The position numbers and the translations under genes are program-made. DNA of 64,000 nt from Minisyncoccota bacterium. Lineage in GTDB: Bacteria; Patescibacteriota; Minisyncoccia; UBA6257; 2-01-FULL-56-20. This document shows positions 1-64,000 of this stretch, in pieces; position 1 is the stretch's first letter; the number at the start of each line of letters is the position of its first letter. Location of the stretch: the NCBI GenBank assembly GCA_035541435.1, contig DATKNL010000010.1:94477-158476 (forward strand), written 5' to 3'. Under the pieces are notes generated by a model. That model was not told the origin of the DNA. It was given only the letters and a program-made list of their open reading frames with translations, and did not search any database.

Positions 1-1336
1 ATTCCGCGGGAGTCATTTTTGCATTCGTTTTCCGTTTCGAAAACCGAGCACGTTGGATTTCCCTGCCTCGCTTTACCTCGGAACGAAGCGTTTCAGTTTC
101 GGAGCGGCGCACGTCAGCGTCTCGGCTTCGTAACATTTCCAAAGAAACCCTTCCGACTGCGATCCGCATGTCGATTCGATCCAAGAGCGGTCCAGAAATC
201 CTTTTTTGATATTTCACGACTTCATAAGCCGTGCACGAGCATGACCGTTCCTTGTCGCCGTAATACCCGCAGGGACAAGGATTCATCGCGGCGATCAGCA
301 TGAAGCCTGCCGGGAACGCGATCCTTCTTCTTGAACGCACGACCTCCATCCGCCCCGCGTCGAGCGGCTGGCGAAGCGCCTCGATTACTCCCCTGCGGAA
401 CTCCGGCAGTTCGTCGATAAAGAGGATGCCCCGATGGGCCAGGCTTATCTCCCCCGGTTTGGGATCCTGTCCCCCGCCGATGAGTGCGACTTGGGAAATC
501 GTATGGTGTGGCGCGCGGAATGGCAGCGATGCGATCAGGCCGTTCGGCTTGAGTCCCGCAGCGCTCCAGATTTTCGTTATCTCGATCGAATCCTCGATGG
601 TCGGCTCAGGCAGGATGCCGACGCAGGCGCTTGCGAGAAGACTTTTCCCAACGCCGGGCGGTCCGATTAGGCAAATGTTATGTTCTCCAGTCAGGGCAAC
701 GAGAAGCGCGCGCTTCGCCGTTTCCTGCCCCTTGACCTCCGAAAAGTCTGGAGCCGTACGGCTGATGAATTTTTTCTTTGTGCGGACTTCTTTCTCGGGT
801 GTTGGTGGCCAGGAATTGATGGCGTCGATTGCCTCGCGGAGTGTTTCTAAAGGTATGACCGTCAATCCTGCGATGACCGAAGCTTCGGCTGCGTTTTCTG
901 AAGGAAGAAAGAGATATTTGAAACGCTCCTTTGCGGCCCGTTCAGCGATGTTAAGGGCGCCCGAAACTCCCCTTAACCGGCCATCAAGCGCCAATTCGCC
1001 TATGAATACGGACGTCCTTTCGTCGAATTTCTTAATTTGGTTTGTTGCCGCTAAATAACCTATGGCAATCGCCAGATCATATTGTGAGCCAGTCTTTCGA
1101 AAGTCAGCCGGCGCCAAATTTATTATTATTTTTCGATTTTCTTGATTTGGGGATTTTATTCCTGTGTTTCTGATGGCGGAATTTACCCGCTCCTTCGCCT
1201 CGTTCAGCGACTTATCGGCAAGACCGACAATTGAAAAATCATGAAGGCCGACATGAACGTCGGCCTCCACCTCGATGATTCTTGCCTCTACCCCTTCTAA
1301 TTCAGCAGAAAAGATCCTCGAAGGCTTTCTAGCCAT
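1..1336 (-). CDS. comM: Mg-chelatase-like AAA+ ATPase, YifB/ComM family. The N-terminal start is at 1336. The C-terminus runs off the window edge.
   Basis: Manual minus-strand translation from the ATG (complement of 1334-1336) gives MARKPSRIFSAELEGVEARIIEVEADVHVGL... It includes a Walker A motif (GPPGVGKS), GILFIDELPEF, and a Cys cluster (NPCPCGYYGDKERSCSCT) typical of the YifB/ComM family. The frame stays open to position 1. It is absent from the ORF track because it is truncated. Confidence 0.8.
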   Translation of the reverse strand, partial: MARKPSRIFSAELEGVEARIIEVEADVHVGLHDFSIVGLADKSLNEAKERVNSAIRNTGIKSPNQENRKIIINLAPADFRKTGSQYDLAIAIGYLAATNQIKKFDERTSVFIGELALDGRLRGVSGALNIAERAAKERFKYLFLPSENAAEASVIAGLTVIPLETLREAIDAINSWPPTPEKEVRTKKKFISRTAPDFSEVKGQETAKRALLVALTGEHNICLIGPPGVGKSLLASACVGILPEPTIEDSIEITKIWSAAGLKPNGLIASLPFRAPHHTISQVALIGGGQDPKPGEISLAHRGILFIDELPEFRRGVIEALRQPLDAGRMEVVRSRRRIAFPAGFMLIAAMNPCPCGYYGDKERSCSCTAYEVVKYQKRISGPLLDRIDMRIAVGRVSLEMLRSRDADVRRSETETLRSEVKRGREIQRARFSKRKTNAKMTPAE

Positions 1337-1380
1337 TCGTTATGTTTAACAGAATGGCCATTAAATAATTATTAAATGAC

Positions 1381-1725
1381 TTACTTGCCTTGCTTATCGT
1401 TTATGCAAAACCGAGATTCCGGGTCTATTTCCAATATGGCCGCTTCAATTGATTTCCCGCATTTTTCACAAATTCCATAAACCCCCTTCGATATCTTATC
1501 CAAAGCCGAAGTTATATCAGAAAGGCGCTTTTTAAGATCTTCGGTTATGGCCATTTGATTGCCAACCTCTTCCGATATATCGGACTCTTCTTCGAAGCGG
1601 ACAACATCGACACCAAGGTCGACGGGTTTTTCATTCCTTTTTATTTCTTCAAGGATCATCACTCGCTCTTTTTCAAGCTTGCTTTTATATTCGCTTAATT
1701 TTTCATTTGTCATAATTGACACCAT
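1381..1725 (-). CDS. DksA/TraR family C4-type zinc-finger protein. The start is uncertain: the track ORF extends to 1812 through a repeat region.
   Basis: There is a coiled-coil N-terminus and a C-terminal motif CEKCGKSIEAAILEIDPESRFC (CxxC-x17-C). The size of about 110 aa fits DksA/TraR. The upstream part of the ORF reads through the TCCGGCAAA repeats and is probably not coding. Confidence 0.55.
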   Translation of the reverse strand: MVSIMTNEKLSEYKSKLEKERVMILEEIKRNEKPVDLGVDVVRFEEESDISEEVGNQMAITEDLKKRLSDITSALDKISKGVYGICEKCGKSIEAAILEIDPESRFCINDKQGK

Positions 1726-1738
1726 AAGATAAAAATTT

Positions 1739-1812
1739 TTATGCGTCAAATCCGGCAAATTATGACAATATTCCGGCAAAAAATCCGGCAAAAATATTCC
1801 GGCAAACTTCAT
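1739..1812. repeat. Four direct copies of (T)TCCGGCAAA spaced 13-15 bp apart in an AT-rich spacer.
   Basis: The sequence reads atccggcaaattatgacaatattccggcaaaaaatccggcaaaaatattccggcaaac. An inverted copy (ttgccgaa) lies at about 1832. Confidence 0.6.
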
Positions 1813-1892
1813 TAAAAAATCATTAAAATTGCCGAATTAAAAATCATAAAAATATCCAATAAACATAGATTTTCTCTAGTGATAAACAAAAA

Positions 1893-2182
1893 TGTTTTTC
1901 AGAATGTTTGTCGCTAAACAACCCATAATTCATTTTCCGATGTTTAGCGCTAAACATCCATTAATTCATTTAAAATTGTTTAGCGTGAAACATTTATAAA
2001 ATAATTAGCGAATGTTTGTCGCTAAACAACCAATAATTCATTTTAGGATGTTTGTCGCTAAACATCCTAAAAATCATTTATAGAAACAGATGAAACTGAA
2101 AAACAATTTCAGAATGTTTGTCGCTAAACATCCCATAATTCATTTTTGGAGTGTTTAGCGCTAAACATCAATTAATTCATTT
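1893..2182. repeat. Iteron-like tandem array. It has about seven 35-40-bp direct repeats, each carrying the palindrome TGTTTAGCGCTAAACA (or the variant TGTTTGTCGCTAAACA) followed by cc-ATAATTCATTT. It ends exactly at the yraN start codon.
   Basis: The units were read directly at about 1898, 1938, 1976 (degenerate), 2011, 2047, 2108 and 2149. GTTTAGCGCTAAAC is a perfect 14-bp palindrome. The region is AT-rich within a GC-rich genome. Confidence 0.7.
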
Positions 2183-8440: not shown

Positions 8441-8583
8441 GAGCGGGTAACGGGAGTCGGACCCGTGTCTGCTCCTTGGAAGGGAGCCATAATAGCCGTT
8501 ATACGATACCCGCGTTTGTGTTCCATTGTATATGGTTTGCGGGCGCTTCTCAAGCGGTGAATCCTTGATTTTTAAGGCCACTT

Positions 8584-9201
8584 TTGCTAGAAATAGGGTA
8601 TTCAATGGACAGAATTTCACGACGGACGAAGGCCCTTGTGGCCTTCATTATTCTTGTAGCGGGCGGGTTTGCGATCACGGTCGTGTGGGGGAGCAGGAAT
8701 CAGGTTCCCGAGGCGTTCACCGACGCCCGCTTGCAGGGCGCCCTCATTTCCCAGACGATCGTAGGCATTTCGAATTCCTCGACCCAGGAGCTCGCCGAGA
8801 TCAACGCGCTTGACCGGAGCGGGAACTACGCCCAGGCGCTTTCCCTTACGACCGACCTCGTGAACCAGAGCCAGCAGCTCCGGGACCAGGGGGTCAAGCT
8901 GTCGAATCAGGTCGGGACGATGACGCAGAGCCTGTCGAGCATCAATTCGTTCTATGCGCAGCAGGCGGCGCTCGAGTCGATCTCGAGCCGGCTCGCGCTC
9001 ATCAACCAGCTCATAACCTATAGCAACGACCTTGACCGGCTGCTCGCCGTGCTTCAGGCGCGTTTTTCGGGAACCTATGAGCCCGCCGGGACCGTGCAGG
9101 GCATCGTTGACCAGATCAACACCGACGTGAACGCGATCAACAACTTCAACACGCAGGCGGAGCAGGCGATGGATCAGTTTGATAAGATAGTGAACAAGTA
9201 G
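8584..9201 (+). CDS. Hypothetical membrane-anchored protein. It has an N-terminal TM helix and a Q/N/S-rich coiled-coil extracytoplasmic region.
   Basis: The TM segment reads ALVAFIILVAGGFAITVVW. The alternative start is MDRISRR at 8605. Confidence 0.5.
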   Translation: MLEIGYSMDRISRRTKALVAFIILVAGGFAITVVWGSRNQVPEAFTDARLQGALISQTIVGISNSSTQELAEINALDRSGNYAQALSLTTDLVNQSQQLRDQGVKLSNQVGTMTQSLSSINSFYAQQAALESISSRLALINQLITYSNDLDRLLAVLQARFSGTYEPAGTVQGIVDQINTDVNAINNFNTQAEQAMDQFDKIVNK

Positions 9202-9272
9202 GGCGCGTAGCTCAACGGCAGAGCAGACGTCTTATACACGTCCGGTTCCTGGTTCGAATCCAGGCGCGCCCA
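9201..9272 (+). tRNA. tRNA-Ile with anticodon UAU, which decodes AUA.
   Basis: It folds as a canonical cloverleaf: acceptor GGGCGCG/CGCGCCC, D-stem GCTC/GAGC, anticodon stem GACGT/ACGTC, loop CTTATAC (U33, anticodon TAT, A37), T-arm CCTGG-TTCGAAT-CCAGG, discriminator A. Confidence 0.8.
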
Positions 9273-9299
9273 CATCGCGTTCCGCACCCCGCGCAATCA

Positions 9300-9334
9300 A
9301 AAAACCCCTCGAGCAGCGAGGAGCTTTTTGCAAC
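9300..9334. terminator. Hairpin CCCCTCGAGCAGCGAGGAG flanked by A- and T-tracts. It is possibly bidirectional (tRNA-Ile on the plus strand, the DUF378 gene on the minus strand).
   Basis: The sequence reads aaaaacccctcgagcagcgaggagctttttgc. Confidence 0.45.
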
Positions 9335-23940: not shown

Positions 23941-24408
23941 ATGAAAACGGCAGGACGCATCATCCTTTTCGCATCGGTCGTCGCGCTCGCCGTCGTGCCG
24001 CTCTTTGCGCGCGCCGACAACGCGTCAGGCATCCCGTATTGGGCGAACGGGGGATTGCTCTCGTGCACCGGCAACTACGTGAACGGCGCCCATCCCTGCA
24101 CGAGCGTCTGCGACCTCATCCAGACGATCGTGAACGTCATCTATTTCGGCATCACGATCTGCCTCTTCGTGCTCGCGCCGATCTTCTTCACGATCGGCGG
24201 CGTCATGCTCATGGTTTCCGGCGCGAACCCCGAGATGATGAGCCGCGGCAAGGGCATCCTGCTGAACACCGTGATCGGCGTCGTGATCGTGCTCTGCTCC
24301 TATCTCATCGTCTTCACGTTCGTGAACGTGTTCGGCGCCTCGGTGAATGGCCAACCGGCATTCAATTCGACCTTTTCATGCGTGCCGCAGTATCCGACAG
24401 GACAATGA
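23941..24408 (+). CDS. VirB2/TrbC-like pilin family protein, paralog 1.
   Basis: It has a signal peptide, a conserved Cys (SVCDLIQ), and two hydrophobic helices separated by GANPEMMSRGKG. This topology and Cys motif are shared with the other four paralogs and with the VirB2 motif NNICTFILG. Confidence 0.55.
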   Translation: MKTAGRIILFASVVALAVVPLFARADNASGIPYWANGGLLSCTGNYVNGAHPCTSVCDLIQTIVNVIYFGITICLFVLAPIFFTIGGVMLMVSGANPEMMSRGKGILLNTVIGVVIVLCSYLIVFTFVNVFGASVNGQPAFNSTFSCVPQYPTGQ

Positions 24409-24409
24409 G

Positions 24410-25222
24410 ATGAGGAAGGCCCTGCTCGGCGCGGTCATCGGTGCGGCGGCCCTCGTGCCGTTCGCCGCGCTTGCGCAGACGCCGGGCCCGACGCCCATCT
24501 CGCTCTCGTTTCCCGGACAGTATATCGTGACGACGAGCACGCCGCCGGGCTATCTCATTTCGAACTTCTATCACTTCATGATCCTGGCGGGCGCGCTCAT
24601 CGCGCTCGGCGCGATCGTCTATGGCGGCATCAAATATGTCATTTCAGCCGGCAATCCGTCCGGGCAGAGCGACGCGAAAGAGCGGCTTGCCGACGCGTTT
24701 CTCGGGCTTACGCTCCTTGTCTGCGCCTATCTCGTGCTCTACACGATCAACCCAAACCTTGTCGAACTCGGCCTGCCGAACCTGAGTCCGATCAGCGTCG
24801 CGACGCCGCCGCAGACGGGCGGCGGCACGCCCTATGCGCCCGGAACGCCGACCGGAGTCGGGTGCGCCGGCGGGCAGTGCAGCACGCTGCCGAACTGCAC
24901 GCCGTCCGCGCGCGTGAACTGCGGCGGCGCCGCGGAGATGGTGTCGGCCATGCAGTGCATTCAGGCGAAGGACCCGAACTTCTCGGTTTCGGAAGGGTAT
25001 CCGCCGACGGGCGCCCATCAATCGAAATGCCATAGCAACGGCTGCTGCATCGACACGGTCGTTCCGGGATCGAGTTGCGCGGCGGTGAACGCGCTCATTC
25101 AGGCGGCGCAATCATGCGGGGCAAGCGTCGCGAACGAATACACGAACTGCAACGGAACGTCCTATGCGCACACGACGGGCGGCAACGTCCATATCAACGC
25201 GCCGCATATCAACGGATGCTGA
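24410..25222 (+). CDS. VirB2/TrbC-like pilin family protein, paralog 2, with a Cys-rich C-terminal extension.
   Basis: It has the signal peptide MRKALLGAVIGAAALVPFAALA and a two-helix core with AGNPSGQSDAKER. A roughly 130-aa tail follows, carrying at least 14 Cys (GCAGGQCSTLPNCTPS...NGCCID...). Confidence 0.55.
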   Translation: MRKALLGAVIGAAALVPFAALAQTPGPTPISLSFPGQYIVTTSTPPGYLISNFYHFMILAGALIALGAIVYGGIKYVISAGNPSGQSDAKERLADAFLGLTLLVCAYLVLYTINPNLVELGLPNLSPISVATPPQTGGGTPYAPGTPTGVGCAGGQCSTLPNCTPSARVNCGGAAEMVSAMQCIQAKDPNFSVSEGYPPTGAHQSKCHSNGCCIDTVVPGSSCAAVNALIQAAQSCGASVANEYTNCNGTSYAHTTGGNVHINAPHINGC

Positions 25223-25232
25223 TTCGAACACC

Positions 25233-25751
25233 ATGAGATCCCGCATCGTCACCATCATCATCGGCGTCATCGTGATCATCGGTTTTGCGATCTATCTGAT
25301 CTTCGGGCGGAGCGGCGGAACGGCCGGATCGGGGACCGGTGCGGGCGTCGGATCTTCGGGGACCGTCGATGGCACGCCCGTCACGGTGAGTCAGGCCTAT
25401 CCGGACGCCCCGACGACCGATCGGATTTCGATCGGGACCGCGGCCGGCATCGTCCAGGTCGCCAATTTCTATGAGGCAAGCGGGACGACCGTGGGCGACG
25501 ACGGCGTGCTCGTCATCAGCCGCGGCGCGGGATATTGGATCACCTATGACCCGTCGGACAGCAGCTTCTGGGTCGCGGTTTCGGGGACGCCGTTCGAGTC
25601 GGTCCGCCAGGCGGCCGAAGCCGACTTTCTCGCCGCGCTCGGCGTGAGCCGGGGCGATGCGTGCAAGCTTGCCGTTTCGGTCGGCGCGCCCTATGCTGCA
25701 GGGAGCGCCCTCAACGGCCAATCCTTCCCCCTGAGCTTCTGCCCGCACTAG
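25233..25751 (+). CDS. Hypothetical membrane-anchored Gly/Ser/Thr-rich protein.
   Basis: It has the N-terminal TM IVTIIIGVIVIIGFAIYLIF and then a soluble domain. It is embedded within the pilin-like array. Confidence 0.45.
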   Translation: MRSRIVTIIIGVIVIIGFAIYLIFGRSGGTAGSGTGAGVGSSGTVDGTPVTVSQAYPDAPTTDRISIGTAAGIVQVANFYEASGTTVGDDGVLVISRGAGYWITYDPSDSSFWVAVSGTPFESVRQAAEADFLAALGVSRGDACKLAVSVGAPYAAGSALNGQSFPLSFCPH

Positions 25752-25764
25752 CCGATAGTTTATA

Positions 25765-26121
25765 ATGAAAGGAATGCAACCCCTGCGGAAATTCGCCTCG
25801 AACGCCCTTGCAGCAGCCGCGCTTTTCGCGGCGGCGGCGAACATCGCCGTGGCCCAGTCCATCACGCTGCCGAACCCGATCGGCACGACGAGCTGGGCGG
25901 ATGTTGCCGGCAAGATCGTCAACGTCATCTTCGTCGATATCGCCATTCCGTTGTGCACCATCATGGCTCTCGTTGGCGGGTTCCAGCTCATGACATCGGC
26001 CGGCGAGCCTGAAAAGGCATCCCGCGGAAGAAAGACACTCTTATATGCCGCCCTGGGGTTCGGCGTCGTGCTGTGCGCCACCGGAATCGCAAGTCTGCTT
26101 CAGAACCTCCTGACTCCCTAA
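25765..26121 (+). CDS. VirB2/TrbC-like pilin family protein, paralog 3.
   Basis: It has a signal peptide, the motif PLCTIMALVGGFQLMTSAGEPEKASRGRKTLLYAALGFGVVL, and a two-helix hairpin. Confidence 0.55.
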   Translation: MKGMQPLRKFASNALAAAALFAAAANIAVAQSITLPNPIGTTSWADVAGKIVNVIFVDIAIPLCTIMALVGGFQLMTSAGEPEKASRGRKTLLYAALGFGVVLCATGIASLLQNLLTP

Positions 26122-26142
26122 AGTCGAACAATCAAAATAACC

Positions 26143-26547
26143 ATGAAAAAAATATCTTTGTCATTGAAGCTCCTCGGATCGTTCGTTGCTGGTTTGCAAG
26201 GATTTGCGGTTGTCGCACATGCTGCTCAATTCGACTCCAATTCCCAGGTGCAGGCTCCCATACAGAACGAAAGCAATCTCCAGCAGTTGTTTTGCAATAT
26301 CATCAGCTGGTTCTTTTGGATTATCATCGTGATCTCGGTCATCATGGTCCTTATGGCGGCGTTCACCTATGTGACGGCCCGGGGCGACGAAGAGAAGACG
26401 ACGCGCGCGAGAAGGACGATCACCTATGCCGCCATTGGCGTTGCGGTTGCGTTTATCGCGGCCGGATTCCCATCCGTCGTAGCAAGCGTCTTCCCGAACA
26501 TGTCTTCCGTGTCACCTGTCAGCCTGACAAAGGTCTGCGCTTTCTAG
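26143..26547 (+). CDS. VirB2/TrbC-like pilin family protein, paralog 4.
   Basis: It has a signal peptide and the motif QLFCNIISWFFWIIIVISVIMVLMAAFTYVTARGDEEKTTRARRTITYAAIGVAVAF. Confidence 0.55.
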   Translation: MKKISLSLKLLGSFVAGLQGFAVVAHAAQFDSNSQVQAPIQNESNLQQLFCNIISWFFWIIIVISVIMVLMAAFTYVTARGDEEKTTRARRTITYAAIGVAVAFIAAGFPSVVASVFPNMSSVSPVSLTKVCAF

Positions 26548-26610
26548 AAAAGGGAATGATGTGCTACACTGACTAAGTACCCAGGAAAGGTCGAATATTC
26601 CTCAAATTCC

Positions 26611-27003
26611 ATGAAGAACGTTATTGGTTTTGCGAAGACCTACGGCCCGGCGATCACGGCGTTCGTGCTCCCGGCGCTTGCGTTCGCTCAACCCGTCGCC
26701 GTTCCTCCGGGTTCCGGCGGAAACACCGTCCCGGGAACGAGCATCACGAGCCTGCAGAGCGTCCTCAACCTGCTCTGCAACATCTTCGGATGGGCCTTCT
26801 GGTTCCTGATCGTCCTTGCCGTCATTTTCGTCATCGTCGCCGCGTTCCGCTATCTCATGGCGGGTGGCAATCCTGAAAATGTCGGAAAGGCCGGCAGCAC
26901 GCTGCTTTATGCGGCGGTTGCGATTGGCGTCGCACTCCTCGCGCGCGCTGTTCCGCTTGTCGTCGGCAGCTTCCTCGGCGCCGGACAGGTGACGTCCTGC
27001 TAG
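26611..27003 (+). CDS. VirB2/TrbC-like pilin family protein, paralog 5.
   Basis: It has a signal peptide and the motif NLLCNIFGWAFWFLIVLAVIFVIVAAFRYLMAGGNPENVGKAGSTLLYAAVAIGVAL. Confidence 0.55.
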   Translation: MKNVIGFAKTYGPAITAFVLPALAFAQPVAVPPGSGGNTVPGTSITSLQSVLNLLCNIFGWAFWFLIVLAVIFVIVAAFRYLMAGGNPENVGKAGSTLLYAAVAIGVALLARAVPLVVGSFLGAGQVTSC

Positions 27004-31540: not shown

Positions 31541-32464
31541 TCAGTCCTCCTTGCGCCGCGTGCCGTGGAACGACTTGTGCACGTCCCGCAGCTGCTTGTT
31601 CGTGAGGTGCGTATAGATCTGCGTGGTCGATATGTTCGAGTGGCCGAGCAGCTCCTGCACGGCGCGGATGTCGGCGCCGTTGATCAGGAGGTCGGTCGCG
31701 AAGCTGTGCCGCAGCTGGTGCGCATGGATGCGTTTCGGAATGCCCGCTTCGCGCGCGCGCCGCTCGACGACGCGTTCGACGGCCCGCGTCGTGATCGGGC
31801 CGATGACGTTGCCCATCCGGTCGAGGCTGACGAACAGCTTCTCTTCGGCGTCGGCGCGCCTCGCGAGATATCTCTGCAGCGCATCGCGCGCGGAATCCGA
31901 GATGAAGACGACGCGGAGCTTGTCGCCCTTCCCGCGCACGGTCGCCTCGCCGCGACGGATGTCGATGTAGCGCGAGAGCGAGCAGAGCTCGGCCAGGCGC
32001 AGTCCCGTCGAGAAGAAGAGCTCGAGGATCGCCTTGTCGCGCAGCGACCGCAGGTCGTTGCCCTTCGGGGCCGCAAGCAGCCGCTCGAGGTCGGCATATT
32101 CCAGAACGTCGATCTGCCGGGCCGGCGCCTTGGGCAGCTCGATCTTCTCGGCGGCGAGCGCCTTCACGTTGCGCTTCGCGAGATATTTGAGGAAGTTCCG
32201 AAGCGCGATGACGTAATAGCCCTGCGTCACCTTCTTGAGCTCGCGGCGCGCAAGGGCCTTGCGGAATTCGGTGACGAGCGACTCGGTGATGTCCTTGGCG
32301 GAGCGGATATCGGCGAACGTCAGGAACTCCTTGAGGTAGTGGCGATAGTTCTCGCTCGTCTTCGGCGAGCGATTCTTCTCGACTTCAAGGTAGTTGAGGT
32401 AGTCCTGAAAGAGCTGTTCGATTTCGCTTGATGCCATTCCCTTATTATACGCCATCTGTCGCAC
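31541..32464 (-). CDS. xerD: Tyrosine site-specific recombinase, XerC/XerD-like.
   Basis: It has an N-terminal SAM-like domain (LSENYRHYLKEFL-type) and a C-terminal catalytic domain with R...HQLRHSFATDLLINGADIRAVQELLGHSNISTTQIYTHL (R-H-R-Y). Confidence 0.8.
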   Translation of the reverse strand: MRQMAYNKGMASSEIEQLFQDYLNYLEVEKNRSPKTSENYRHYLKEFLTFADIRSAKDITESLVTEFRKALARRELKKVTQGYYVIALRNFLKYLAKRNVKALAAEKIELPKAPARQIDVLEYADLERLLAAPKGNDLRSLRDKAILELFFSTGLRLAELCSLSRYIDIRRGEATVRGKGDKLRVVFISDSARDALQRYLARRADAEEKLFVSLDRMGNVIGPITTRAVERVVERRAREAGIPKRIHAHQLRHSFATDLLINGADIRAVQELLGHSNISTTQIYTHLTNKQLRDVHKSFHGTRRKED

Positions 32465-61765: not shown

Positions 61766-62008
61766 ATGGCCCGACGCTATGGCAGAAAATCGCAGCAGAA
61801 GGTGAAGCGCGCGATGCACGAAATGAAGCGCGGCAAGCTTAAAAGCGGCCGCAGCGGCAAGACGGTCCGCAGCCGAAAACAGGCCATCGCCATCGGTCTT
61901 TCCGAGGCGCGCCGATCGGGCGCAAAGGTTCCGCCGGCGCCGAAGCGAGGAAGGGGACGAGGGCGGTCCTCTACCCGCACCCGCAAACGCTCAAGGAAAA
62001 GCAGATAA
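61766..62008 (+). CDS. Hypothetical small highly basic protein.
   Basis: It is an 80-aa Lys/Arg-rich ORF overlapping the 5' end of the peptidase ORF on the opposite strand. No family was recognised. Confidence 0.35.
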   Translation: MARRYGRKSQQKVKRAMHEMKRGKLKSGRSGKTVRSRKQAIAIGLSEARRSGAKVPPAPKRGRGRGRSSTRTRKRSRKSR

Positions 62009-62070
62009 TTTTTCGTCGCGCCTCTCACTTGAACCGCCGGACGGAGTGCGGTACCCTTAGGTGTCATTTT

Positions 62071-62157
62071 GGAGGCGTGGCCGAGTGGCTTAAGGCAGCA
62101 TCCTGCTAAGATGTTAGGGGAGAAATCCCCTCGAAGGTTCGAATCCTTCCGCCTCCG
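62071..62157 (+). tRNA. tRNA-Ser (GCU), type II.
   Basis: It has acceptor GGAGGCG/CGCCTCC, anticodon loop CTGCTAA, a long variable arm, T-arm GAAGG-TTCGAAT-CCTTC and discriminator G. Confidence 0.85.
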
Positions 62158-62287
62158 CAGACAAGGTAAAAGTATCGTAGCAACCGTCTTATATAGCTTC
62201 TTAGTGCGACCGCCCTACCCGAGGACAGGAGGACGGCCGAACTTTTTGATTTTTAATTTGTCTAATTCTGGGCTTTGATCCTTCGGG

Positions 62288-62920
62288 TTAAAATACCATC
62301 TTCGTATCTCCCCATCCTCCTTTCGGAGAGAACTCTCCGGCGATGGCACGCTCGTGTATTTCCCACGGCGTAGCGCCCGCTTCGCGTGCTTCCACTAATT
62401 TGTCGGGATCGACGGGTGTTATTTTCGGTTCCATCGTTTTAATATGCTCCGTCGCGGTCTCCCACGAGCTGTAATTGTTGACGAAGATCTCTACGTTGTT
62501 TCCGTCGGGATCCATCCAATAGAACGACGTGCCCACGCCGTGGTCGGCCGCCCAGACCGGCTTGATGCCTTCGTCCTTCAGGCGCACGTAGGTGCCCAAG
62601 AGGTCATCCAAGGTAGGAATTTCAAATGCCACGTGTTGCAGCCTGAGATGTTTTTGCTTGTCGGGGTCAGTTTTGACGCCCTTAACTTCGAAGAGGACGA
62701 TGCGGTGATCCACCTCGTCATTGCCCATAAACGTTGCGGCCGAAAAGGGTGAAAATTGACGCGCAACAAGCCCCACTTCCGAACGATGATTTACGTTCAT
62801 CCCTAATACCCTACGGTACCACTTTGCCATAGCATCCATGTTGGCGGTGACGAGCCCGTAATGCATCAGTTTGGGATGAGCGATGACTTCTGCGTTAAAT
62901 TTATTATTTTTTGTACTCAT
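62288..62920 (-). CDS. VOC family protein (glyoxalase/bleomycin-resistance/extradiol dioxygenase fold).
   Basis: It has two betaabetabetabeta modules (HYGLVTANMDAMAKWYRRVLG and HVAFEIPTLDDL). Confidence 0.65.
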   Translation of the reverse strand: MSTKNNKFNAEVIAHPKLMHYGLVTANMDAMAKWYRRVLGMNVNHRSEVGLVARQFSPFSAATFMGNDEVDHRIVLFEVKGVKTDPDKQKHLRLQHVAFEIPTLDDLLGTYVRLKDEGIKPVWAADHGVGTSFYWMDPDGNNVEIFVNNYSSWETATEHIKTMEPKITPVDPDKLVEAREAGATPWEIHERAIAGEFSPKGGWGDTKMVF

Positions 62921-62950
62921 TGGTTTATTTATATTTAATTAGTTTATATT

Positions 62951-62967
62951 ATCTTAGTTGCTAAGAT
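62951..62967. promoter_or_regulatory. Palindromic operator (7-3-7) in the divergent VOC/MarR intergenic region.
   Basis: ATCTTAG-TTG-CTAAGAT is a perfect inverted repeat in an AT-rich spacer. It matches the typical pseudo-palindromic architecture of a MarR binding site. Confidence 0.55.
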
Positions 62968-63005
62968 ATTTACATGGTAAGCGATGTCTGCTATCCTTGT
63001 CAAAT

Positions 63006-63470
63006 ATGGAAAAAGGCCGACTTTTACAGAATTTAGGACAGGCCATGATGGGCCTCAGCAACGAGCAGATCCTACTCCATCAGGCCGTTGCCGACGCGCT
63101 TGGCCTTAATATCACGGATCACAAATGTGTGAACCTTATTGCGCGGTTCAATCCCATGACCGCAGGTAAGCTTGCAGAACTCACCGGCCTCACCACGGGA
63201 GCAATCACAGGCGTCATCGACCGGCTCGAGAAAGGCGGCTATGCAAAGAGAATCCTCGACCCCAACGACAGGCGCGTGACCGTCGTCGAACTGACCAAGA
63301 AAGGAGAATCGATCAGCAAGATATTCTTGCCGCTGGTTAAGAAAATGGGAAAAGCGTTTGAAGCATTTAGCGACAAAGAACTGGCTGTTATTCTCAAGTT
63401 TGTAACTCTCGCCGCGGAAACTTCTCATGATGCGGCGAAGGAACTCAGGAAGAAAAGCGGAAAGAAATAA
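63006..63470 (+). CDS. MarR family transcriptional regulator.
   Basis: It has a winged-helix region (MTAGKLAELTGLTTGAITGVIDRLEKGGYAKRILDPNDRRVTVVELT). Confidence 0.8.
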   Translation: MEKGRLLQNLGQAMMGLSNEQILLHQAVADALGLNITDHKCVNLIARFNPMTAGKLAELTGLTTGAITGVIDRLEKGGYAKRILDPNDRRVTVVELTKKGESISKIFLPLVKKMGKAFEAFSDKELAVILKFVTLAAETSHDAAKELRKKSGKK

Positions 63471-63603
63471 GGAGAACTCTCCATGGGAGAATAAATCGGT
63501 AAGTTCGAATCCTCCCGCCGATATGGATAAATTAAAAAACTCAATAAAATCAATGGGATGGCACCAGGGCGACCGAGACGGTTCGAATACTGCCGCCCCC
63601 GCC

Positions 63604-63643
63604 ATGCTAAAAAAGACACTCATATGAGTGTCTGTTTTAGCAT
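63604..63643. terminator. Long perfect hairpin flanked by A-tracts and T-tracts (bidirectional terminator-like).
   Basis: The sequence atgctaaaa-aagacactca-ta-tgagtgtct-gttttagcat is a nested perfect inverted repeat. Confidence 0.6.
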
Positions 63644-64000
63644 TTGTTGAGATGAAGGATTCGAACAGCGGAGGGGGTCGGGGAACCGCGATCGGTTCCC
63701 CGTGTCGGAGAGCCGCTGAGAACCGAGGGTTCTGAGGGTGCGAGCATAGCGAACGATGTTCGATTCCCTTCCGCCTTCGCCAGCGGCGGATTTGGAAAAA
63801 CCAGGGCTTCGTCAATTAAAAAAATAGCTTCTACTTTTTTGTAGAAGCTATCCGTTCTTGCGACGGTTAACCCGTCAGAACAAAGTCAATCCGTACCATA
63901 CCCTGCCATCGCAGCAAGTTGATGGGGATCGCTGATGCGCGATCCAGCATCGAACCGGTCACGATATCGGTAGTCGAAATCGAACGATGTGCGGAGCACT

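What the first reader, a model, noticed from the sequence alone, without database searches (positions are those of the whole stretch)
9201..9272. tRNA-Ile with a UAU anticodon (AUA decoder) instead of the usual lysidine-modified CAU
This is a textbook cloverleaf whose anticodon loop CTTATAC gives anticodon UAU. Most bacteria read AUA with tRNA-Ile2 (LAU, which needs TilS). tRNA-Ile(UAU) is known only from a few lineages, for example Mycoplasma mobile. This implies an alternative AUA decoding strategy, possible loss of tilS, and perhaps a modified U34.
Basis: partly seen in the sequence, partly recalled or inferred. Interest (0 to 1): 0.55.

Follow-up and report, generated by a model that had tools for sequence, protein, structure and literature searches.

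The report
Conserved AUA-reading isoleucine tRNA in Patescibacteria
The flagged sequence is a genuine isoleucine tRNA with a UAU anticodon in a tiny-genome "candidate phyla radiation" bacterium, and this tRNA is standard equipment next to the ftsH gene across that whole group, even though the literature treats such tRNAs as rare in bacteria.

Summary
Window 9201-9272 (+) is a canonical 72-nt tRNA with anticodon UAU at 9233-9235. ARAGORN calls it, and its Rfam score of 68.6 bits is the best of the nine tRNAs in the window. The window is chromosomal DNA of a Candidatus Paceibacterota/Minisyncoccia (Patescibacteria, CPR) MAG.

The tRNA is not a one-off. In 80 metagenome loci chosen only by FtsH similarity, 36 of the 42 with at least 3 kb downstream of ftsH carry tRNA(UAU) there. 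The layout usually matches the window. Across 46 distinct sequences the anticodon loop CUUAUA and A73 never change, while 18 of 21 stem pairs show compensatory changes. AUA codons in CPR ftsH genes align to Ile/Val/Leu exactly as AUU and AUC do, not to Met.

This is therefore the lineage's functional AUA=Ile decoder. Whether tilS and tRNA-Ile2(CAU) are absent could not be tested. Neither occurs in the 81.6 kb of the contig that I could read, but the rest of the genome was out of reach.

It is a new member of a known kind. The phylum-wide conservation appears to be undescribed in the literature I could search.

The parts
9201..9272 (+). tRNA-Ile(UAU) gene, 72 nt up to discriminator A73; CCA is not encoded
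   Evidence: ARAGORN; Rfam 68.6 bits; sequence; covariation in 46 orthologues
9233..9235 (+). Anticodon T34-A35-T36 (UAU) within the loop C32-U33-U34-A35-U36-A37-C38 (9231-9237)
   Evidence: Sequence. Loop positions 32-37 are invariant in 46 distinct orthologues that were not selected on the tRNA
9307..9329 (+). Terminator-like hairpin CCTCG-AGCAG-CGAGG followed by AGCTTTTT, 34 nt after the tRNA 3' end, between the tRNA and the convergent DUF378/ftsH genes
   Evidence: Consensus scan; a consensus match only, function not shown
8584..9201 (+). ORF of 198-205 aa (N-terminal membrane anchor, no Pfam hit). Its stop codon TAG (9199-9201) overlaps the first base of the tRNA, so the tRNA is probably co-transcribed with it (inferred)
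   Evidence: ORF list and sequence; called as a 198-aa gene without a Pfam hit; the same ORF follows DUF378 downstream of ftsH in relative L210
9352..9576 (-). DUF378 (PF04070) small membrane protein lying between ftsH and the tRNA
   Evidence: same position in relative L210
9681..11510 (-). ftsH, the conserved syntenic anchor; tRNA-Ile(UAU) lies downstream of it across Patescibacteria
   Evidence: Pfam architecture. The tRNA is downstream of ftsH in 32 of 33 GTDB loci and in 36 of 42 metagenome loci picked by FtsH alone
8441..8513 (-). tRNA-Gly(UCC), a conserved neighbour in the layout ftsH> ... <tRNA-Ile(UAU) ... tRNA-Gly(UCC)>
   Evidence: the same pairing occurs in 31 of the 80 FtsH-selected loci

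Best explanation
This is a functional, vertically inherited tRNA-Ile with a genomically encoded UAU anticodon. It reads the rare AUA codon as isoleucine in a Candidatus Paceibacterota (Patescibacteria/CPR) bacterium.

Shown:
- The gene is a canonical tRNA.
- Its orthologue sits downstream of ftsH in most relatives and in many other CPR classes.
- The anticodon loop and A73 are invariant while the stems co-vary.
- AUA codons in these genomes occupy Ile-type positions.

Inferred:
- It is probably transcribed with the upstream 198-aa ORF and released by RNase P and 3' processing. CCA is then added enzymatically, because it is not encoded.
- It is charged by IleRS. It carries A35, U36, A37, A73, C4-G69, U12-A23 and C29-G41, which are E. 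coli IleRS determinants.
- It pairs U34 with the A of AUA.

Most likely, but not shown: it is the only AUA decoder, meaning the lineage works without lysidine (no TilS, no tRNA-Ile2(CAU)), as in Mycoplasma mobile or Bifidobacterium. In that case, AUG misreading would have to be limited by the tRNA context (C32/C38), by an unknown U34 state, or by the ribosome.
For: tRNA detection.

Organism: the identical FtsH is NCBI HVN26571.1, 'MAG TPA ... [Candidatus Paceibacterota bacterium]'. The nearest homologues are Paceibacterota, Minisyncoccia and Liptonbacteria. The flanks are housekeeping chromosomal genes.

Synteny: the tRNA is downstream of ftsH in 32 of 33 GTDB loci that contain ftsH. In the sample not selected on the tRNA, 56 of 80 loci carry tRNA(UAU), and 36 of the 42 with at least 3 kb downstream do; the median distance is 608 nt.

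Constraint: 99.8% of cells are paired, 18 of 21 pairs change on both sides, and the covariation score is 0.744 against 0.18 for shuffles (0 of 500 reach it) and 0.06-0.12 for slid registers. Positions 32-37 and 73 are invariant. In 68 CPR sequences from GTDB, A73 is present in 68 of 68.

Decoding: 294 AUA codons in 27 CPR ftsH genes align to I 49%, V 17%, L 15% and M 2.7%. AUC and AUU give I 52%; AUG gives M 48%. Some CPR use AUA for more than half of the Ile codons in ftsH.

AUA use in the window: 72 codons, 4.0 per 1000.

No tRNA(CAU), TilS-like ORF or PP-loop SGGxDS N-terminal ORF was found in the window, in the contig extensions, or in about 1.9 Mb of related loci.

Identity elements are as listed in PMC9976931.
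Against: The 'sole decoder, no lysidine' part rests on absence within only 81.6 kb of a 158.7-kb contig, from a genome probably close to 0.9 Mb.

The related loci are syntenic copies of the same region, so they are not independent samples of whole genomes.

Bacteria that carry both tRNA-Ile(CAU)+TilS and tRNA-Ile(UAU) exist (Lactobacillus plantarum; references).

Position 38 is C, whereas A38 is an E. coli IleRS determinant. The D-loop lacks E. coli's G16/U20.

Neither charging by IleRS nor the modification state of U34 can be read from DNA.
Confidence: 0.62

Rival explanations
1. Redundant decoder. The genome also encodes TilS and tRNA-Ile2(CAU), and the UAU tRNA is a second AUA reader, as in Lactobacillus plantarum/casei.
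For: Such redundant systems are documented (Tomikawa 2018 and Uesugi 2022, cited in PMC9976931; an evolutionary intermediate stage is proposed in PMC3575796). Only about 10% of the genome could be inspected. Large-genome bacteria in the scan (Streptomyces, Planctomycetota) probably carry both systems (inference).
Against: In a ~1-Mb reduced genome, a redundant tRNA would be expected to be lost often. Instead the gene is retained at the syntenic site in 86% of relatives with adequate flanks, and its anticodon loop is invariant. Of the 17 tRNA(CAU) genes in the 120 GTDB loci, those in CPR loci looked like initiator or elongator Met types, and I could not assign any to Ile2. No tRNA(CAU) was found in the 80 metagenome loci.
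Confidence: 0.32
2. Non-functional or foreign copy: a tRNA pseudogene, or a tRNA brought in by a phage or mobile element.
For: Nine tRNAs scattered over 64 kb first suggested a mobile element or large phage. An integrase-family gene lies at 31541-32464.
Against: This is the highest Rfam score in the window. The stems are perfect. Orthologues at the same chromosomal site across many CPR classes show compensatory substitutions. The flanks are housekeeping genes (nusA, clpP, tyrS, ftsH, glyA, folD, gyrA). Megablast of window 1-25000 against 50,697 phage records gave a single 397-bp match to one phage, inside the ftsH coding region.
Confidence: 0.02
3. Codon reassignment: the UAU tRNA carries an amino acid other than Ile (for example Met, as for AUA in many mitochondria).
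For: By wobble rules a U34 tRNA could read both AUA and AUG. Isotype calls by ARAGORN rest on the anticodon alone.
Against: AUA positions in CPR ftsH genes align to I/V/L with the same profile as AUU and AUC. Met accounts for 2.7%, against 48% at AUG positions. A73 and the stem pairs C4-G69, U12-A23 and C29-G41 fit the Ile identity set.
Confidence: 0.02

Closest known systems
Mycoplasma mobile tRNA-Ile2(UAU) system (Taniguchi et al. 2013, PMC3575796)
   Same: A bacterial tRNA with a genomically encoded UAU anticodon that reads AUA as Ile in a small, reduced genome. The sequence looks like a tRNA-Ile2-type body with T at position 34.
   Different: In M. mobile, the absence of tilS, the unmodified U34, the IleRS Arg865 adaptation and ribosomal AUG avoidance were all shown experimentally. 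None of these could be examined here. The M. mobile case is a recent, species-level event within Mollicutes. Here the gene is conserved, with synteny, across a whole superphylum.
Bifidobacterium / Neorickettsia: tRNA-Ile(UAU) with eukaryote-type IleRS (IleRS2) and no tilS (PMC3575796, PMC3919564)
   Same: Bacterial lineages in which the UAU tRNA replaces the lysidine system at clade level.
   Different: The IleRS type of this organism is unknown, because ileS is not in the readable sequence. The class-I synthetase fragments seen in related loci proved to be ValRS (L143) and MetRS (L012).
Lactobacillus plantarum/casei redundant tRNA-Ile(CAU) + tRNA-Ile(UAU) (Tomikawa 2018; Uesugi 2022; cited in PMC9976931)
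   Same: A UAU tRNA in a bacterium that reads AUA as Ile.
   Different: There, TilS and tRNA-Ile2(CAU) coexist with it. Coexistence here has been neither shown nor excluded.
Canonical bacterial tRNA-Ile2(CAU->LAU) with TilS
   Same: The same decoding task (AUA=Ile). The general body is similar: A73, U12-A23, C29-G41, and a variable loop ending in GGUY.
   Different: Position 34 is T in the DNA, so lysidine, which is a modified C, cannot be made on this tRNA. Position 38 is C rather than A.
Eukaryotic cytosolic tRNA-Ile(UAU, PsiAPsi) and archaeal tRNA-Ile(UAU) of Nanoarchaeum/Korarchaeum (PMC3919564)
   Same: A UAU-anticodon solution to AUA decoding. Archaeal tRNA(UAU) genes also turned up in the scan (L020, L082, L109, L113, L124).
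   Different: A different domain of life. In eukaryotes, Psi34/Psi36 and an intron are part of the mechanism. No intron is present here.

Membership tests
Canonical tRNA (Rfam RF00005) | Cloverleaf scoring above the family gathering score | tested here: met
   68.6 bits against a gathering score of 29, full-length model match; ARAGORN call
Canonical tRNA (Rfam RF00005) | Four helices maintained by compensatory change in orthologues | tested here: met
   99.8% of cells paired; 18 of 21 pairs changed on both sides; 0 of 500 shuffles reach the covariation score; slid registers give 25-41% paired
Bacterial tRNA-Ile (IleRS substrate; E. coli identity set, PMC9976931) | Discriminator A73 and anticodon A35, U36 | tested here: met
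   A at 9272; A35 at 9234 and U36 at 9235. A73 is present in 68 of 68 GTDB CPR sequences and in all 46 FtsH-selected sequences
Bacterial tRNA-Ile (IleRS substrate; E. coli identity set, PMC9976931) | Stem determinants C4-G69, U12-A23, C29-G41 | tested here: met
   All three are present in the window copy. Across CPR, 4-69 and 29-41 vary (C-G in 50 of 68 and 15 of 68), so they are not family-wide determinants in this phylum
Bacterial tRNA-Ile (IleRS substrate; E. coli identity set, PMC9976931) | A37 (t6A) and A38 in the anticodon loop; D-loop G16/D20/D21 | tested here: not met
   A37 is present, but the t6A modification cannot be read from DNA. Position 38 is C here, and in 43 of 68 GTDB CPR sequences and 37 of the 46 FtsH-selected sequences. 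The D-loop AACGGCA has C at positions 16 and 20. These are E. coli-specific minor elements, so this weakens the claim 'E. coli-like recognition', not the claim 'Ile tRNA'
Bacterial tRNA-Ile (functional definition) | The cognate codon AUA encodes Ile in the organism's proteins | tested here: met
   AUA-aligned residues are I 49%, V 17%, L 15% and M 2.7%, the same as for AUU and AUC
Lysidine-independent AUA decoding (M. mobile / Bifidobacterium type) | tRNA gene with a TAT anticodon | tested here: met
Lysidine-independent AUA decoding (M. mobile / Bifidobacterium type) | No tilS in the genome | tested here: inconclusive
   No PF01171 gene in contig positions 72641-154233. No tblastn hit with E. 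coli TilS, and no N-terminal SGGxDS ORF, in the window or in any fetched locus.
Lysidine-independent AUA decoding (M. mobile / Bifidobacterium type) | No tRNA-Ile2(CAU) gene | tested here: inconclusive
   No CAU tRNA in the window or its extensions, nor in the 80 FtsH-selected loci. The CAU tRNAs in CPR loci from GTDB look like initiator or elongator Met types, but they could not be typed rigorously
Lysidine-independent AUA decoding (M. mobile / Bifidobacterium type) | IleRS adapted to U34 (Arg or another residue in place of E. coli Trp905, or an IleRS2-type C-terminus) | not testable with these tools
   ileS is absent from all readable sequence of this lineage. The candidate fragments were ValRS and MetRS
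Lysidine-independent AUA decoding (M. mobile / Bifidobacterium type) | U34 unmodified, or modified so as to avoid AUG | not testable with these tools
   Requires LC-MS or tRNA-seq of the native tRNA
tRNA-Ile2(CAU)/lysidine system | C at position 34 as the TilS substrate | tested here: not met
   Position 34 is T at 9233. It is T in all 46 orthologues not selected on the tRNA

The most novel reading that the evidence does not exclude
Patescibacteria (CPR) as a whole, possibly together with their Chloroflexota/Dormibacterota relatives, decode AUA with an ancestral, ftsH-linked tRNA-Ile(UAU) and have dispensed with lysidine (TilS plus tRNA-Ile2(CAU)). If so, lysidine-independent AUA decoding would be the norm for a very large share of bacterial diversity, not a handful of exceptions. 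The frequent C38 (a C32/C38 loop) and an unknown U34 state, IleRS adaptation or ribosome adaptation would then be what prevents AUG misreading, even in CPR genomes that use AUA for more than half of their Ile codons.
Probability: 0.5. Interest if true: 0.75.

Novelty: new member of a known kind. Interest (0 to 1): 0.5.

Why it matters
How to read AUA without misreading AUG is a classic problem of the genetic code. The textbook bacterial answer is lysidine made by the essential enzyme TilS. Papers up to 2026 describe tRNA-Ile(UAU) in bacteria as confined to 'rare cases' or 'very few species'.

The evidence here is that a UAU tRNA is conserved, syntenic and under strong purifying selection across the candidate phyla radiation. 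That points to a large, testable natural reservoir of the alternative solution. Cultivated members such as Saccharibacteria and Minisyncoccus are available for biochemistry.

The result also matters for three practical reasons:
- Annotation: Ile-TAT calls in CPR genomes should not be treated as errors.
- Phylogenomics: TilS is, to my recollection, one of the bacterial marker genes used for phylogenomic placement and genome-completeness scoring (own knowledge, not checked here). If CPR lack it, those scores are affected.
- TilS as a proposed antibacterial target.

For this single locus the result is modest. It is an ordinary, functional gene of its lineage.

Tried and rejected
1. Phage or mobile-element origin. 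This was suggested by the nine scattered tRNAs. It was rejected because the flanks are housekeeping genes, synteny is conserved, and megablast of window 1-25000 against phage records gave only one 397-bp match, inside the ftsH coding region.

2. Looking for tilS near ftsH. In Bacillus the order is tilS-hprT-ftsH (own knowledge). In CPR loci the gene upstream of ftsH is usually a divergent smpB or an unrelated gene, never tilS.

3. TilS search. I ran tblastn with E. coli TilS and a PP-loop SGGxDS regex over the window, the contig extensions, 120 GTDB loci and 80 metagenome loci. There were no TilS hits. The only SGGxDS hits were internal to SHMT-like ORFs or were spurious. This is uninformative about whole genomes.

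4. IleRS typing. tblastn with E. coli IleRS found true IleRS only in two archaeal loci. The CPR hits were ValRS (L143, DTWFSSG motif) and MetRS (L012).

5. Typing the 17 CAU tRNAs found in the GTDB loci as Met or Ile2. This was not possible with confidence.

6. Literature. No paper in the searchable library contains both 'lysidine' and 'Patescibacteria'. The 'tilS' hits were tumour-infiltrating lymphocytes. The Codetta genetic-code screen does not mention AUA. The supplement of PMC3575796, which lists tilS-less bacteria, is not held.

7. A database search for a CPR TilS was not attempted. Only the best 120 hits are listed, so an E. coli query would return only enterobacterial proteins (judged). 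Walking along the 913-kb contig of the relative is blocked by the look-up rules.

Full report
**Observation**

ARAGORN predicts nine tRNAs in the window, including tRNA-Ile(tat) at 9201-9273 on the + strand. Rfam's tRNA model matches 9201-9272 over its full length at 68.6 bits (gathering score 29, E=7.6e-13). That is the best score of the nine.

The sequence folds as a standard cloverleaf:
- acceptor stem GGGCGCG/CGCGCCC
- U8 A9
- D arm GCUC-AACGGCA-GAGC
- anticodon arm GACGU-CUUAUAC-ACGUC
- variable loop CGGUU
- T arm CCUGG-UUCGAAU-CCAGG
- discriminator A73 at 9272

The anticodon U34 A35 U36 lies at 9233-9235. The 3' flank reads CAT, so CCA is not encoded.

**Where it sits**

The window is part of ENA metagenome contig ERZ27256510:k141_595828 (158,720 bp), with window position 1 at about record position 81,261. 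Gene calls with Pfam hits across record positions 72,641-154,233 show an ordinary bacterial chromosome. The genes include comM, nusA, ppa, clpP, tyrS, ftsH, glyA, folD, rpsA, gyrA, rpsO, pnp, recA, ftsK, clpB, gyrB, secE-nusG, rpsR and obg. There is also a run of small T4SS-pilin-like genes of the kind seen in CPR bacteria.

The identical FtsH protein is NCBI HVN26571.1, 'MAG TPA ... [Candidatus Paceibacterota bacterium]'. The closest named homologues, at 77-85% identity, are Paceibacterota, Minisyncoccia and Liptonbacteria. The host is therefore a Patescibacteria (CPR) bacterium with about 60% GC. A phage origin is not supported.

Locally, the tRNA begins at the last base of the stop codon of a 198/205-aa membrane-anchored ORF on the same strand (8584-9201). 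A terminator-like hairpin follows at 9307-9321. The tRNA converges on a DUF378 gene (9576-9352) and on ftsH (11510-9681). tRNA-Gly(UCC) lies at 8441-8513 on the other strand.

**Is AUA used, and as what?**

In 59 window CDSs chosen by GC3 frame bias, AUA occurs 72 times in 17,822 codons. That is 4.0 per 1000 and 6.4% of Ile codons. It occurs in ftsH, gyrA, tyrS, nusA, clpP and ftsK, so a decoder is required.

I aligned 27 CPR FtsH proteins and looked up the residues opposite every AUA codon (294 codons). They are Ile 49%, Val 17%, Leu 15% and Met 2.7%. This profile cannot be told apart from that of AUC and AUU (Ile 52%). It is unlike the AUG profile (Met 48%). AUA is therefore Ile in these organisms.

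In low-GC CPR genomes AUA can be the commonest Ile codon in ftsH, for example 30 of 52 in L040 and 29 of 60 in L093. In those genomes the AUA decoder is not a minor tRNA.

**How widespread is the tRNA?**

I scanned one genome per GTDB species with a degenerate pattern that requires only the D stem, the loop CTTATA and GTTCRA. The pattern had 1 hit in the window and 0 in shuffles.

By record title, 63 of the 120 are CPR lineages. These are Saccharibacteria, Kaiser-, Jorgensen-, Taylor-, Nomura-, Uhr-, Falkow-, Woese-, Levy-, Shapiro-, Dojka-, Peri- and Moranibacteria, plus Paceibacterota and Minisyncoccia. Four more unlabelled MAGs share the CPR synteny. The rest include Planctomycetota, Chloroflexota, Dormibacterota, Streptomyces, Ignavibacteria and five archaea. 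The order in which the scan walks the collection is unknown, so these are counts and not prevalences.

In 33 of the 120 loci an FtsH homologue lies in the same 8-kb chunk. In 32 of those the tRNA is downstream of ftsH, often only 50-125 nt away and on the same strand.

**A test not selected on the tRNA**

Those loci had been selected for having the tRNA. I therefore fetched 80 JGI metagenome loci using only the window's FtsH protein as the query (64-88% identity).
- 56 of the 80 carry tRNA-Ile(tat).
- Among the loci with at least 3 kb downstream of ftsH, 36 of 42 (86%) have it there. Among those with at least 5 kb, 30 of 34 do.
- The median distance from ftsH is 608 nt.
- The commonest layout is ftsH> ... 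<tRNA-Ile(UAU) ... tRNA-Gly(UCC)>, as in the window.
- No CAU tRNA occurs in any of these loci.

A relative with 85% FtsH identity, on a 913,682-bp contig, has the same gene order around ftsH, including DUF378 and the 198-aa ORF.

**Selective constraint**

The 46 distinct tRNA(UAU) sequences from this sample were aligned and scored against the cloverleaf:
- 99.8% of 966 cells form standard pairs.
- 18 of 21 pairs show changes on both sides.
- The covariation score is 0.744, against 0.18 for shuffles (0 of 500 reach it) and 0.06-0.12 for slid registers.
- The D stem also switches, with compensation (GCUC/GAGC to GUUC/GAAC, GCAU/AUGC or GCUU/AAGC).
- C32-U33-U34-A35-U36-A37, A73, U8, A9, G18 G19 and G53-C61 are invariant.

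The nearest orthologue (L130, FtsH 88%) differs from the window tRNA at one D-loop base. In the 68 CPR sequences from GTDB, A73 is likewise present in 68 of 68. This is a functional gene family under purifying selection, not a pseudogene or a recent acquisition.

**Identity**

The E. coli IleRS determinants listed in PMC9976931 are A73, the anticodon, t6A37/A38, C4-G69, U12-A23, C29-G41 and some D-loop bases. The window tRNA has A73, A35, U36, A37, C4-G69, U12-A23 and C29-G41. It has C38 instead of A38, and a short D-loop without G16/U20.

C38 is the majority state in CPR: 43 of 68 in the GTDB set and 37 of 46 in the FtsH-selected set. It also appears in a Chloroflexia copy that is 82% identical to the window tRNA. 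Most non-CPR hits have A38. Whether a C32/C38 loop tunes codon binding is speculation on my part.

**What could not be settled**

I found no tilS (PF01171), no tRNA(CAU) and no ileS in the 81.6 kb of the contig I could read. I also found no TilS-like ORF in about 1.9 Mb of related loci, using tblastn with E. coli TilS and the SGGxDS motif. Those loci are copies of the same neighbourhood, and 81.6 kb is roughly a tenth of a genome of this kind, so this is weak evidence.

The synthetase fragments that looked promising were ValRS and MetRS.

My preference for 'sole decoder' rests on an argument, not a test. A redundant tRNA in a ~1-Mb genome should be lost often. This one is retained at its ancestral site, with an invariant anticodon loop, across very deep CPR divergences. 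Redundant CAU+UAU systems do exist, in Lactobacillus, so I give that rival about one chance in three.

**Comparison with the literature**

Taniguchi et al. (PMC3575796) characterised the M. mobile system. It has no tilS, an unmodified U34, IleRS Arg865 in place of E. coli Trp905, and ribosomal avoidance of AUG. They noted that Bifidobacterium and Neorickettsia lack tilS and have eukaryote-type IleRS.

Kohrer et al. [quoted passage not shown] A 2026 preprint still writes 'rare cases', and a 2025 TilS paper names only M. mobile. No paper in the searchable library contains both lysidine and Patescibacteria. Subscription-journal literature was not searchable, so I do not claim priority.

**Verdict**

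The finding is real and correctly read. For this organism it is an ordinary, conserved, functional gene, so it is a new member of a known kind: a bacterial tRNA-Ile(UAU).

The interesting part lies outside the given coordinates. An ftsH-linked tRNA-Ile(UAU) appears to be ancestral to, and nearly universal in, Patescibacteria. If tilS is indeed missing there, lysidine-independent AUA decoding is far more common in bacteria than is currently stated. That question can be tested directly with whole-genome surveys and with the few cultivated CPR strains.

Noticed in passing
window 23941-27003: A run of five or six small ORFs on the + strand with PF18895 (T4SS_pilin) hits, following a solute-binding protein gene. 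This is the pilin-like cluster typical of CPR/Patescibacteria.
   Followed up: no
P0074 (homologue of window FtsH): A close FtsH relative (83% identity over the matched part) is 1040 aa long and carries LAGLIDADG (PF14528) and intein-splicing (PF14890) domains. It is an intein-containing FtsH.
   Followed up: no
L011, L039, L041, L060, L089, L115, L118 (GTDB loci): These records are titled 'uncultured Gammaproteobacteria bacterium' but carry CPR-like tRNA(UAU) genes. The tRNA set of L041 is almost identical to that of L012 and L120 (Patescibacteria/Shapirobacteria). The taxonomic labels of these MAGs are probably wrong.
   Followed up: partly
L012 98-168, L024 5794-5865, L041 1153-1223, L048 7126-7197: An unusual 71-72-nt CAU tRNA (TGCGG(G/T)(G/T)TAG(T/G)GTA...CTCATAA...) with a very short D arm lies close to tRNA(UAU) in several Patescibacteria and one Chitinophagaceae-labelled MAG. 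Whether it is an initiator, elongator or Ile2 type is unknown.
   Followed up: no
L082 1427-3694 and L124 7235-7978 (archaeal MAGs): In two archaeal loci an IleRS gene lies within a few kb of the tRNA(UAU) gene. This may be synthetase-tRNA linkage in archaea that lack agmatidine.
   Followed up: no
window 9199-9201 / 9201: The stop codon TAG of the upstream 198/205-aa ORF overlaps the first nucleotide of the tRNA, so there is no spacer. The same ORF follows DUF378 downstream of ftsH in the relative on the 913-kb contig (L210 12388-12984). The ORF has an N-terminal membrane anchor and no Pfam hit.
   Followed up: partly
L008, L022, L125 (Chloroflexota), L065 (Dormibacterota): tRNA(UAU) genes in these phyla are up to 82% identical to the window tRNA, and one shares the CUUAUAC loop. 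This would fit an origin before the CPR/Chloroflexota split, or transfer between them.
   Followed up: no
window 1-2000 and 62001-64000: GC drops to 0.47-0.50 at both ends of the window, against about 0.60 elsewhere. The ORFs at 1381-1812 and 2183-2560 are relatively AUA-rich, with 9 and 5 AUA codons.
   Followed up: no
window 31541-32464 (-): A tyrosine recombinase/integrase-family gene (PF00589) lies among housekeeping genes, close to rpsO-pnp. It is probably xerC/D-like. No mobile element was delineated.
   Followed up: no
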